Below the pieces are notes generated by a model that ran no database searches, had not been told where the DNA came from, and saw only the letters and a program-made list of their open reading frames with translations. Both the position numbers and the translations under genes were made by a program. DNA of 64,000 nucleotides from Parcubacteria group bacterium Greene0714_7 (GTDB lineage Bacteria > Patescibacteriota > Minisyncoccia > Phycocordibacterales > Phycocordibacteraceae): positions 158,273 to 222,272 of the forward strand of contig VMHB01000002.1 in assembly GCA_007378985.1 (NCBI GenBank), written 5' to 3'. Positions 12,149 to 18,918 of this stretch are shown here, one piece after another. The first letter of the stretch is position 1. The number at the start of each line of letters is the position of its first letter.

Positions 12149-12325
12149 TTTGCATCGAAAACCGCCCTAATAGGACCGTAGGGGTTGAAGTGAGGATAAT
12201 AGGGAGGTAAGCTTCCGAAAGGAGAAGATAGTGAGCCCCGTAAGCATTTTTGTTTCTTGCACAAAAAGCTTTCAGGGCCTTCGCTCGAAGAAAATAAACA
12301 TGCATGTTTGTTTTCCTTCTCGCTC

Positions 12326-12500
12326 GGCCCTGTAGTTTAATGGATAAAACAGGAGACTTCTAAGCTCTTGATCGAGGTTCGATCAGGGGCGTTGGGCGAG
12401 GAATCGAAAGACGGACTGAGGCTTTGCGAAGGAGTCCGGGCAGGAGCCACTTAACGAGTCTGCGAGTTTAGTGAGCTGACGCCGATTCCTCGCGGGGCTA
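12326..12500 (+). tRNA. tRNA-Arg(TCT)-like gene interrupted by ~100-nt insertion within the T-loop (intron or tRNA pseudogene)
   Basis: 5' part folds perfectly: acceptor GGCCCTG, U8, D-stem GTTT/AAAC, anticodon loop CTTCTAA, T-stem 5' CGAGG plus TTCGAT; matching T-loop remainder, T-stem 3' CCTCG and acceptor 3' CGGGGCT-A are found only after 12484; insert 12384..12484 flanked by CGAT direct repeat. Confidence 0.45.
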
Positions 12501-18506: not shown

Positions 18507-18582
18507 GGTGGTTGTAGCTCAGCTGGTAGAGCTCCGGTTTGTGGTACCGGCGGTCGTGGGTTCGAGCCCCATCAACCACCCA
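18507..18582 (+). tRNA. tRNA-His (anticodon GTG) with encoded G-1
   Basis: G-1 plus GTGGTTG acceptor pairing CAACCAC-C, D-arm GCTCAGCTGGTAGAGC, anticodon stem CCGGT/ACCGG loop TTGTGGT, T-arm GTGGG-TTCGAGC-CCCAT. Confidence 0.85.
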
Positions 18583-18616
18583 GAATGACACCCGCCTTGT
18601 GCGGGTTTTGTCATTC
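18583..18616 (+). terminator. rho-independent terminator after tRNA-His
   Basis: gaatgacacccgccttgtgcgggttttgtcattc hairpin with T-run. Confidence 0.6.
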
Positions 18617-18649
18617 TGGGTGGCTAAGCAAGCAAATAGTTTTGCTTGC

Positions 18650-18812
18650 GTCAGGGAATCGAAAAGCGGAACGATGTTTCTTGTCTCAAGAAACCGTGAG
18701 CTGGCGATTAGCGAATCGTGCCGAGAGGCTCTGCGACCGAGCCGAACAGTCGCCCTCGCCAGTATGATGAAGCGTCAGGTGAGTCGAGAGTTGTAGTCGA
18801 TTCCCTCCAGAT
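18650..18812 (+). promoter_or_regulatory. structured 5' leader upstream of ribE-ribH, candidate divergent FMN riboswitch
   Basis: closing helix GGGAATCGA...TCGATTCCC; internal segments resembling RFN element blocks (CTGGCGATTAGCGAA vs CCGGCGGTAGTAAAG; GAGCCGAACAGT vs GAAGCCGACAGT); sits immediately upstream of riboflavin genes. Confidence 0.3.
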
Positions 18813-18918
18813 AAATAGACTTAGGAATTTCACCTCGACTCCCTGTAGCCACCCCACGTAAGAACTTTAAAAAGCTTGCCCCTGTTCGTGCTCCCCGAAA
18901 AGGTTTATTGTAGTAATA

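What the first reader, a model, noticed from the sequence alone, without database searches (positions are those of the whole stretch)
12326..12500. tRNA-Arg(TCT)-like gene split by a ~100-nt element inserted in the T-loop, flanked by a 4-bp direct repeat and carrying an antisense copy of its own T-arm
Positions 12326..12383 fold as a flawless tRNA 5' portion through the first six T-loop nucleotides (acceptor, U8, D-arm, anticodon arm with TCT, T-stem 5' CGAGG plus TTCGAT). The remaining T-loop base, T-stem 3' strand CCTCG, acceptor 3' strand CGGGGCT and discriminator A occur only at 12485..12500. The intervening ~100 nt starts CAGGGGCGT and ends ACGCCGAT (short terminal inverted repeat GGCGT/ACGCC) and is bounded by CGAT at both junctions. 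It contains GCGAGGAATCGAA, which is antisense to the T-arm. The candidate explanations are a non-canonical bacterial tRNA intron at the T-loop (known only from archaea), a miniature inverted-repeat element that has inactivated the tRNA, or an integrase att remnant.
Basis: seen in the sequence. Interest (0 to 1): 0.62.

Follow-up and report, generated by a model that had tools for sequence, protein, structure and literature searches.

The report
tRNA fused to flanking insertion element
The apparent intron in this bacterial tRNA-Arg gene is really a small, folded, non-coding insertion element that normally sits just behind an intact tRNA gene; here 57 bases, including the tRNA's true 3' end, are missing, so the two look fused.

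Summary
Removing 12384..12486 gives a sequence that ARAGORN calls as tRNA-Arg(TCT). It is not an intron.

The window comes from a CPR bacterium (Parcubacteria Greene0714_7). An independent assembly (Logan, SRR8863435) is 100% identical over 4.9 kb of flank. It has an intact tRNA-Arg(TCT), a 42-nt palindromic terminator and then the same "insert". The window lacks exactly those 57 nt.

A relative (L093) has the empty site: tRNA followed directly by the flank. So the "insert" plus "3' exon" is an insertion of about 160 nt bounded by a 19-nt direct repeat of tRNA positions 56-74.

The insertion belongs to an apparently undescribed family. I found about 30 loci behind tRNAs of 14 or more amino-acid identities, sometimes in tandem arrays. 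Each has an antisense arm matched to its own tRNA, a conserved three-way-junction fold with strong covariation, and a terminal tRNA 3' fragment that starts at C56. It has no ORF, no Rfam match and no viral, phage or plasmid match. A second, degenerate copy follows tRNA-His at 18582..18860.

The fused form is unique to this window. It would fold as the element rather than as a tRNA (ΔΔG +21.9 kcal/mol). It is most likely an assembly or minor-allele deletion.

The parts
12326..12383 (+). 5' 58 nt of the tRNA-Arg(TCT) gene, tRNA positions 1-59: acceptor 5' strand, D arm, anticodon arm, T-stem 5' strand and T-loop TTCGAT.
   Evidence: Sequence read. ARAGORN calls the joined molecule. Identical to the intact gene in L057 up to T59.
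12383..12384 (+). Breakpoint. 57 nt are absent here that are present in SRR8863435: TCCTCGCGGGGCCAC plus the perfect 42-nt palindrome CAACATAAAAACATCGGATGTACATCCGATGTTTTTATGTTG. That segment is the tRNA's genuine 3' end and its terminator.
   Evidence: blastn of the joined L057+L001 against the window gives 100% identity over 4053 + 884 nt with one 57-nt gap. Four-way alignment.
12384..12395 (+). CAGGGGCGTTGG, the element segment that follows the terminator in the long form. It contains a sense-like copy of the acceptor 3' strand, which causes the near-threshold alternative Rfam tRNA alignment.
   Evidence: (L036 has CGGGGGCGTTGG).
12396..12408 (+). Antisense arm S' (GCGAGGAATCGAA), complementary to tRNA positions 54-66. 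It forms the 5' strand of helix P1.
   Evidence: 11/11 complementary; helix 1 covaries; the antisense arm reaches position 54 in 10 loci.
12409..12438 (+). Junction AAG/A followed by hairpin P2 (CGGACT...AGTCCG), with the conserved CGGA...GAG flanks of the family.
   Evidence: helices 2 and 3 are 100% paired, and 4 of their 5 pairs show compensatory changes.
12439..12483 (+). Hairpin P3. The base helix is GGC/GCC, followed by an internal loop, AGC/GCT with a bulged A, and then CACTTAACGAG-TCTG-CGAGTTTAGTG, which contains a conserved U.U mismatch and tandem G.A pairs.
   Evidence: helices 4 and 5. The G-C to A-U compensatory change at columns 85/98 is seen in this copy.
12483..12500 (+). Right-hand direct-repeat copy of tRNA positions 56-73 (CGATTCCTCGCGGGGCTA).
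   Evidence: The flank CAAATTTAGTTCA that follows equals the flank of the empty site in L093.
18582..18860 (+). Second, composite and degenerate member of the same family, downstream of tRNA-His(gtg) at 18508..18581. It has a palindromic terminator, an antisense acceptor arm, hairpin Pa, an antisense T arm, P2, 'module D' and a terminal tRNA-His 3' fragment.
   Evidence: CM R1 hit at 18649..18812, 26 bits, E = 4e-5. Sequence.

Best explanation
The locus is a tRNA-Arg(UCU) gene followed by a small (about 160 nt), non-coding, structured insertion element from a family common in CPR/Patescibacteria.

In the normal ('long') form the order is:
1. the intact tRNA;
2. a palindromic terminator;
3. an antisense arm matched to that tRNA's T-arm;
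4. two conserved hairpins (P2 and P3);
5. a duplicate of the tRNA's 3' part that begins at C56.

The antisense arm and the duplicate pair with each other, closing a three-way junction.

In this window 57 nt are missing: the tRNA's real 3' end from T60 onwards, plus the terminator. As a result tRNA positions 1-59 abut the element, and the element's terminal tRNA fragment looks like a 3' exon.

Shown:
- the element is an insertion relative to an empty site;
- it has a conserved fold;
- it occurs behind many different tRNAs and in tandem arrays;
- the fused form is unique to this window;
- an otherwise identical population sequence has the intact gene.

Inferred:
- The 57-nt gap is an assembly or library artefact, or a minor defective allele, triggered by the 42-nt perfect palindrome. 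It is not a fixed, functional state.
- The family spreads by site-specific insertion at tRNA 3' ends, with the direct repeat acting as an att-like core or a long target duplication. The folded S'-P2-P3-S structure would be the recombination substrate or recognition module, and the enzyme would be supplied in trans.
For: Organism and source:
- Bacterial CPR context. The source is Parcubacteria bacterium Greene0714_7.

Intact gene in the same population:
- L057 and L001 (Logan, SRR8863435) match the window at 100% over 4053 + 884 nt and differ only by the 57 nt.
- Both Logan contigs run through the two deletion end points without branching.
- These exact proteins are on record only in the source contig and in that one run.

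Insertion status:
- L093 is the empty site. L036 is an occupied long form.
- All syntenic relatives have an intact tRNA-Arg(tct).

Family:
- 42 metagenomic loci contain the P3 core. In about 28 of them the core lies 65-170 nt downstream of an intact tRNA on the same strand, covering 14 or more amino-acid identities.
- The direct repeat starts at position 56 in 18 of 26 loci, and the antisense arm reaches positions 52-54.
- Only the window lacks the upstream repeat.
- Tandem arrays occur in L019, and several tRNAs per contig carry elements.
- The same trailer is shared between a Trp locus and a Ser locus.

Fold:
- 27 pairs, 97.0% paired against 27-40% when the partners are slid, 15 pairs with compensatory changes, 0 of 500 shuffles as good.

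Function of the fused form:
- Enforcing the cloverleaf costs +21.9 kcal/mol.
- AGA makes up 72 of 471 Arg codons in the long ORFs, so a broken tRNA-Arg(UCU) should be deleterious.
Against: - No reads were available, so a real deletion and an artefact cannot be separated.
- The deletion ends show no microhomology, and the left end lies 15 nt outside the perfect palindrome. That is not the simplest signature of palindrome collapse.
- The join of the two Logan contigs rests on an 18-nt overlap at the palindrome centre.
- No integrase or transposase lies in or beside the elements.
- There are no viral, phage or plasmid copies, so the mobility mechanism is unproven.
- The tRNA-matched antisense arm is not a feature of classical att sites.
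- At the window's tRNA-His locus the terminal fragment does not match the resident tRNA. Neither a simple att model nor a simple target-duplication model predicts that.
Confidence: 0.8

Rival explanations
1. The 57-nt deletion is real and fixed in this strain. The tRNA-Arg(UCU) gene is then a pseudogene fused to the element, and AGA is decoded by another gene copy elsewhere in the genome.
For: - The contig is contiguous across the junction.
- Long palindromes are deletion-prone in vivo (established knowledge).
- The deletion end points are not what simple palindrome collapse by an assembler would give.
Against: - The long form is the only unbranched path in the independent assembly of the one public run that holds these exact genes.
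- AGA is used 72 times in the 10,002 codons of the long ORFs examined.
- No second tRNA-Arg(tct) lies in the 64 kb.
- CPR genomes usually carry single tRNA copies (general knowledge).
Confidence: 0.3
2. It is a genuine non-canonical intron in the T-loop of a bacterial tRNA, removed at the RNA level. The antisense arm would organise the splice sites, as in archaeal BHB introns.
For: - The joined exons give a tRNA that ARAGORN accepts.
- The intron-like segment pairs with exon sequence and is highly structured.
- Position 59/60 is a known site of archaeal non-canonical introns (own knowledge).
Against: - Orthologues and the same population have an uninterrupted gene.
- In about 30 other loci the same element lies outside an intact tRNA.
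- With the T-stem as the outer helix, the central 4-bp BHB helix would need UUCG to pair with intron GCCG. It cannot (read).
- No Rfam intron or ribozyme family matches at E <= 10.
- The tRNA fold is disfavoured by 21.9 kcal/mol.
- The '3' exon' carries a U72 mutation typical of a decaying copy.
Confidence: 0.03
3. The family is not mobile DNA but a structured non-coding RNA gene, a tRNA-like acceptor/T-arm mimic that arises from and co-evolves with the neighbouring tRNA. It might act in tRNA processing, as a decoy, or as a switch in which the antisense arm pairs with either copy of the tRNA 3' part.
For: - Strong covariation, together with conserved non-Watson-Crick features (a U.U mismatch, tandem G.A pairs, a bulged A and invariant junction bases) of the kind typical of RNA motifs.
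- Always on the tRNA strand.
- Some versions have a full acceptor-like stem plus CCA (L002, L007).
- The antisense arm can pair with either sense copy.
Against: - An intrinsic terminator usually separates the tRNA from the element, and no promoter-like site was found.
- The element is present in some close relatives and absent from others (L093 against L036).
- Tandem arrays exist.
- Terminal fragments are decayed or truncated in many copies.
- G.U pairs (7) against A.C pairs (3) do not decide the strand.
Confidence: 0.25

Closest known systems
tRNA gene fragments (attL/attR direct repeats) left by integrative elements that target the 3' part of tRNA genes (Reiter 1989 and Williams 2002, cited from my own knowledge; van der Gulik et al. 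2023, PMC9897764)
   Same: One complete tRNA gene and one partial 3' fragment lie in direct repeat around inserted DNA. The repeat starts inside the T-loop and runs to, or beyond, the tRNA's 3' end. Empty sites exist in relatives. Several insertions can accrete at one tRNA.
   Different: The known elements are 9-23 kb or larger and encode an integrase (PMC9897764). Here the inserted DNA is only about 130-250 nt with no ORF and no nearby recombinase. It also has a conserved three-way-junction fold and an antisense arm matched to the target tRNA.
Folded single-strand recombination sites: integron attC sites and the CTX-phi attP(+) hairpin (own knowledge)
   Same: Two inverted arms pair to imitate the duplex target site, and a variable structured region of about 80-90 nt lies between them. 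After insertion the antisense arm sits about 90 nt inside one junction. Small non-coding units can stack in arrays.
   Different: Those systems use IntI or XerCD at attI or dif, not tRNA genes. No such enzyme was linked here. Folding of single-stranded DNA, as opposed to RNA, was not tested.
Archaeal non-canonical (BHB) tRNA introns, and the model that tRNA introns and split tRNAs arise from integration and recombination of mobile elements (Sugahara et al. 2012, PMC3293823)
   Same: The tRNA is interrupted in the T-loop by a structured segment that pairs with exon sequence. The window shows how an integrated element plus one deletion can produce an intron-like gene, as that model proposes.
   Different: This is a bacterium. 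The locus has no BHB motif and no conservation of the interruption, and the intact gene is present in the same population.
REP/BIME-type extragenic palindromes and MITEs
   Same: Short, non-coding, hairpin-forming repeats occur in intergenic DNA. The P3 hairpin also occurs alone after genes, and next to IS110-family and DDE transposase genes.
   Different: REPs and MITEs are not tied to tRNA 3' ends. They do not carry target-matched arms or duplicate 18-19 nt of a tRNA.

Membership tests
Archaeal-type BHB tRNA intron | A bulge-helix-bulge motif at the exon-intron junctions: two 3-nt bulges separated by a 4-bp helix. | tested here: not met
   With the T-stem as the outer helix and junction 59/60, the central helix would pair U54-G57 (UUCG) with intron bases -6..-3 (GCCG), which gives 1 of 4 pairs. 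What forms instead is a 10 x 4 internal loop followed by GGCGU/ACGCC (read).
Archaeal-type BHB tRNA intron | The interruption is conserved in orthologous tRNA genes. | tested here: not met
   L002-L007, L036, L057, L092 and L093 all have an uninterrupted tRNA-Arg(tct).
Archaeal-type BHB tRNA intron | The host encodes a splicing endonuclease (EndA) and a ligase. | not tested
   Only 64 kb of a bacterial genome is available. The proteins scanned include no such enzyme.
Bacterial group I intron in a tRNA gene | A P1-P9 ribozyme core (more than 200 nt), usually inserted in the anticodon loop, that matches Rfam Intron_gpI. | tested here: not met
   The insert is 103 nt and lies in the T-loop. No Rfam intron or ribozyme family matches at E <= 10.
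att-type tRNA gene fragment from an integrative element | A direct repeat of the tRNA 3' part bounds the inserted DNA, and relatives have an empty site. | tested here: met
   A 19-nt repeat CGATTCCTCGCGGGGCCAC is present in L036 and SRR8863435. L093 is the empty site with the same right flank.
att-type tRNA gene fragment from an integrative element | The inserted DNA encodes, or is a deletion remnant of an element that encoded, a tyrosine or serine integrase. | tested here: not met
   The inserts are 130-250 nt and hold no ORF. Their size and architecture are consistent across about 30 loci. The neighbours are housekeeping genes. No viral copies were found.
MITE | Terminal inverted repeats plus a short, fixed-length target-site duplication, in many dispersed copies. 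| tested here: inconclusive
   Many copies exist. However, the inverted arms S'/S include target sequence. The repeat is 8-31 nt (most often 19-20) in the longest exact-match analysis and is anchored at C56, and insertions occur only at tRNA 3' ends.
Folded ssDNA recombination site (attC / CTX attP-like) | Inverted arms fold to mimic the target duplex, and the structure rather than the sequence is conserved. | tested here: met
   P1 covaries with each tRNA (5 of 8 pairs show compensatory changes), and P2 and P3 covary.
Folded ssDNA recombination site (attC / CTX attP-like) | Recombination by a dedicated tyrosine recombinase acting on one folded strand. | not testable with these tools
   No enzyme could be linked to the element, and there are no biochemical data.
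Curated structured RNA family (Rfam 15) | The sequence reaches the gathering score of a family. | tested here: not met
   The window locus has no match. In 15 related loci only tRNAs match, plus an unrelated LOOT RNA.

The most novel reading that the evidence does not exclude
The family is a new kind of tiny, non-coding, programmable mobile element, or a mobile RNA gene. In this reading its antisense arm acts as a guide that selects the T-arm and 3' end of a particular tRNA gene as the insertion site, a safe haven in very compact CPR genomes. The conserved P2-P3 scaffold would recruit a host-encoded or trans-encoded enzyme. The window's fused form would then show that one such element plus one deletion can create an intron-like tRNA gene, which would be a bacterial illustration of how tRNA introns or split tRNAs can be born.
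Probability: 0.15. Interest if true: 0.85.

Novelty: new variant of a known kind. Interest (0 to 1): 0.5.

Why it matters
For the finding as stated, the result is deflationary. There is no evidence for a bacterial T-loop tRNA intron. The split gene is a 57-nt omission next to a perfect palindrome, and annotators should not record it as an intron-containing tRNA.

What lies underneath is more interesting. A widespread, structurally conserved element of about 130-250 nt specifically occupies the 3' side of tRNA genes of many identities in CPR bacteria. It duplicates tRNA positions 56-73 and carries a tRNA-matched antisense arm. I found it neither in Rfam nor in the literature I searched.

It explains stray tRNA 3' fragments and odd tRNA-like hits in CPR genomes. 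It marks hot spots of local rearrangement, such as tandem arrays and tRNA replacement. It also poses a clear mechanistic question: who moves it, and how does the arm come to match its target?

Finally, it gives a concrete example of the route from integration to deletion to an intron-like gene that has been proposed for archaeal tRNA gene disruption.

Tried and rejected
- Archaeal origin: rejected. The neighbours are Mur ligase and PilM/PilN, and the relatives are Patescibacteria.
- BHB intron: rejected by reading the junctions.
- Group I intron, hammerhead, twister or other ribozymes: no Rfam match at E <= 10. A partial CUGACGC...GAAA resemblance to the hammerhead core is not conserved in the other P3 classes.
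- tmRNA or two-piece tmRNA: rejected. An intact anticodon arm is present, and ARAGORN finds no tmRNA.
- Other copies of the insert in the window by blastn: none. The covariance model later found the degenerate copy behind tRNA-His.
- Phage attP origin: four viral-contig scans and a covariance-model search of the 33 chance hits found nothing. The curated phage and plasmid collections gave no match.
- IS110 bridge-RNA or TnpB omega-RNA idea: one solo P3 hairpin lies upstream of an IS110-family transposase, and another lies next to a DDE transposase. Other solo hairpins sit beside NusA, a PIN-TRAM protein or a kinase. The tRNA-linked elements have no such gene nearby. The two arms cover the same target segment and pair with each other, unlike bridge-RNA guides. 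This idea is not supported, though it is not excluded in trans.
- Literature: six searches, one of which failed on a term-format error, found no description of the element or of the source MAG. Williams 2002 is not held in the library.
- Microhomology or hairpin-skipping explanations for the 57-nt gap: none fits the end points.

Full report
**1. Observation**

- 12326..12383 reads as tRNA positions 1-59 with anticodon TCT.
- 12487..12500 supplies T60, the T-stem 3' strand CCTCG, the acceptor 3' strand CGGGGCT and A73.
- CGAT occurs at both junctions.
- GCGAGGAATCG (12396..12406) is perfectly complementary to CGATTCCTCGC (12483..12493).

ARAGORN finds five other tRNAs in the window but nothing at this locus. 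Rfam at gathering thresholds finds nothing there either. Deleting 12384..12486 in silico gives a tRNA-Arg(tct) of 73 nt that ARAGORN accepts.

A permissive Rfam scan gives tRNA at 28.0 bits against a threshold of 29, through an alternative alignment. That alignment uses CAGGGGC (12384..12390) as the acceptor 3' strand and drops the T arm. No intron or ribozyme family appears at E <= 10.

The joined molecule would have G1.U72 and U6.G67 in the acceptor stem, so "flawless" is an overstatement.

**2. Organism**

The neighbouring genes are bacterial: Mur ligase, PilM/PilN and a CofE-like ligase. Relatives of the CofE-like gene are Patescibacteria/Paceibacterota MAGs. The identical protein is annotated in "Parcubacteria group bacterium Greene0714_7" on a 286-kb contig.

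**3. The same population has an intact gene**

The exact CofE-like protein and the exact upstream 173-aa protein are each on record in only two contigs: the large source contig and one Logan contig from run SRR8863435.
- The upstream Logan contig (L057) carries an intact tRNA-Arg(tct) ending ...GGTTCGATTCCTCGCGGGGCCACCA, followed by ACATAAAAACATCGGATGTACATCCGAT, where the contig stops.
- The downstream contig (L001) starts with ATCGGATGTACATCCGATGTTTTTATGTTG and continues with CAGGGGCGTTGGGCGAGGAATCGAAAG... through the whole "insert", the "3' exon" and the CofE-like gene.

The two contigs overlap by 18 nt at the centre of a perfect 42-nt palindrome. Joined, they match the window at 100% identity over 4053 and 884 nt. 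The single difference is 57 nt that the window lacks: TCCTCGCGGGGCCAC plus the palindrome. Both Logan contigs run through the two deletion end points without branching.

**4. Relatives: intact tRNA, and an empty site**

All syntenic relatives (L002-L007) have an uninterrupted tRNA-Arg(tct).
- L036, a close relative on a 316-kb contig, has the long form: tRNA, a palindromic terminator, CGGGGGCGTTGG, the element, and CGATTCCTCGCGGGGCCAC followed by CAAATTTAGTTCA.
- L093 (CofE-like protein 86% identical) has the tRNA followed directly by AAATTTAGTTCAC. This is the empty site.

The four-way alignment shows that the element is an insertion of about 160 nt bounded by a 19-nt direct repeat of tRNA positions 56-74. 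The window is the occupied form minus 57 nt.

**5. A family**

A metagenome scan for the P3 core returned 42 loci. In about 28 of them the core lies 65-170 nt downstream of an intact tRNA on the same strand. The tRNAs are Arg (three anticodons), Gly, Glu, Trp, Leu, Ala, Cys, Ser, Tyr, Asp, Gln, Val, Lys and His.

The common architecture, in order:
1. the tRNA;
2. a trailer with a terminator that is often palindromic;
3. optionally an antisense copy of the acceptor 3' strand and a hairpin Pa;
4. an antisense T arm (xxxxxAATCGAAAG);
5. P2;
6. P3;
7. a short linker;
8. a sense copy of the same tRNA's 3' part.

In 18 of 26 non-redundant loci the exact repeat starts at position 56, and the antisense T arm reaches back to positions 52-54. 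Only the window lacks the upstream repeat copy.

Evidence that copies move or multiply:
- The element-specific trailer is shared between a tRNA-Trp locus (L019) and a tRNA-Ser locus (L038).
- L019 has a perfect 1.9-copy tandem of a 161-nt unit, and in all at least four copies behind tRNA-Trp. It has a second array behind tRNA-Leu.

**6. Fold**

Twenty elements align to a three-way junction (A1). RNAalifold predicts 27 pairs, 15 of them with compensatory changes.

On the named structure, 97.0% of cells are paired, against 27-40% when the partners are slid. No shuffle out of 500 reaches the observed pairing, covariation score or number of compensated pairs. Helices P2 and P3, which are unrelated to tRNA sequence, are 99-100% paired and carry 8 compensated pairs.

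Conserved non-Watson-Crick features (a U.U mismatch, tandem G.A pairs and a bulged A) and invariant junction bases argue for a specifically recognised fold. G.U pairs (7) against A.C pairs (3) do not decide between RNA and single-stranded DNA.

A covariance model (R1) gave these results:
- It recovers the window copy at 105.9 bits. This copy was part of the training alignment.
- It finds further copies behind other tRNAs in the same contigs: 3 of 4 tRNAs in L045, 2 of 3 in L017 and both in L034.
- It finds a second, composite copy in this window behind tRNA-His (18649..18812, 26 bits).

Rfam has no matching family. Viral contigs, curated phages and plasmids hold no copy. No ORF lies in the elements, and L019's arrays are surrounded by housekeeping genes.

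**7. Can the fused form work?**

The fused RNA folds with the antisense arm paired to the terminal fragment (-75.9 kcal/mol, z = -4.96). Enforcing the cloverleaf costs +21.9 kcal/mol.

The junctions cannot form a BHB motif. With the T-stem as the outer helix, UUCG would have to pair with GCCG.

AGA makes up 72 of 471 Arg codons in the long ORFs, and no other tRNA-Arg(tct) lies in the window. Losing this gene should therefore be harmful. The "3' exon" also carries U72 where the functional copy has C72, as expected for a copy that is not used.

**8. Interpretation**

The intron reading is not supported. The insert and the "3' exon" are the body and the right-hand repeat of a small insertion element. 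The split arises from 57 missing bases that include a perfect 42-nt palindrome.

I judge an assembly or library artefact, or a minor defective allele, to be more likely than a fixed deletion (roughly 60:35). The reasons are that the only public run holding these exact genes assembles unbranched into the long form, and that the fused gene should not function. The end points do not look like a simple palindrome collapse, however, and I had no reads.

For the family I favour site-specific insertion at tRNA 3' ends, with the folded S'-P2-P3-S module as the recombination or recognition structure and the enzyme acting in trans. This step is inferred. A structured-ncRNA reading remains open at about 0.25, and the two readings are not mutually exclusive.

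**9. Comparison with what is known**

The closest known situation is the complete-plus-partial tRNA gene pair left by integrative elements (PMC9897764; Williams 2002, from my own knowledge). Those elements are kilobases long and encode integrases.

The arm-loop-arm topology resembles the integron attC site and the CTX-phi attP hairpin (own knowledge).

The window also illustrates the route proposed for archaeal tRNA gene disruption, in which integration followed by recombination gives an intron-like or split gene (PMC3293823).

**10. Verdict**

The intron interpretation is rejected, and the att-remnant interpretation is the closest. The split itself is ordinary or artefactual. The element family underneath appears to be undescribed and deserves follow-up.

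Noticed in passing
window 18582-18860 (+): A second, composite member of the element family lies behind tRNA-His(gtg). Its antisense arms (GGGTGGCTA, TCAGGGAATCGAA) and its terminal fragment (CGACTCCCTGTAGCCACCCCA) match each other and the tRNA-His of L056. They do not match the resident tRNA-His 3' end (CGAGCCCCATCAACCACCC). This suggests that either the tRNA or the element was replaced by recombination or transfer.
   Followed up: partly
L015, L023, L027, L031, L039, L040, L046, L047, L049 (P3 coordinates): The P3 hairpin (CACTTAGCGAG nnnn CGAGCTTAGTG, with a conserved U.U mismatch and tandem G.A pairs) also occurs alone, away from tRNAs. It is found after stop codons or terminators, twice in tandem in L023/L031, and next to an IS110-family transposase (L047) and a DDE transposase (L015). 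It behaves like a REP-type module recognised by something unknown.
   Followed up: partly
L019 1102-1960 and 5781-6260: Arrays of four or more tandem element copies lie behind tRNA-Trp, including a perfect 161-nt tandem and copies with a 60-nt insertion in the P3 loop. Two copies of the '3'-end type' lie behind tRNA-Leu(caa).
   Followed up: partly
L002, L004/L026, L005, L032/L020 (behind tRNA-Arg(tct) and tRNA-Asp): A related 'B-type' element has a full acceptor-like stem (for example TGCCCCCT...AGGGGGGGCA), a T-stem mimic, a P2 with the same CUGAGCUU.CGAAAG loop and a different P3 (GTACAGCTCCTGTAAGGAGAG). It is often followed by a truncated C-type copy. There is also a recurrent 'module D', CGATTAGAAAATCGTGCCGAGAGGCT. 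The family is broader than the P3 pattern captured.
   Followed up: no
L006, L050, L092, L019 (second array): In a '3'-end type' of the element the repeat is only the last few tRNA bases (for example CCACAAAA). The palindromic terminator's right arm is complementary to the tRNA's last 4-5 nt, and it changes with the tRNA (GTGG, GTGCG, GTGCC).
   Followed up: no
window 12234-12332 (+): The 5' leader of the tRNA-Arg gene holds nested inverted repeats, including a near-perfect palindrome at 12290..12315. By eye, not among the pairs listed, it also holds an antisense copy (CAGGGCC, 12274..12280) of the acceptor 5' strand. This structure underlies the weak 'lactis-plasmid' Rfam hit. The leader is conserved in L006.
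   Followed up: no
reconstructed long form (L057+L001): Folded as one RNA, the long form pairs the antisense arm with the genuine tRNA T-arm through the palindrome (-104.1 kcal/mol, z = -7.1). The antisense arm can therefore pair with either copy of the tRNA 3' part, which is a switch-like topology.
   Followed up: no
L043 10051-10171 (+): A LOOT RNA (RF03000, 63.5 bits) lies in the same contig as an element but is not adjacent to it.
   Followed up: no
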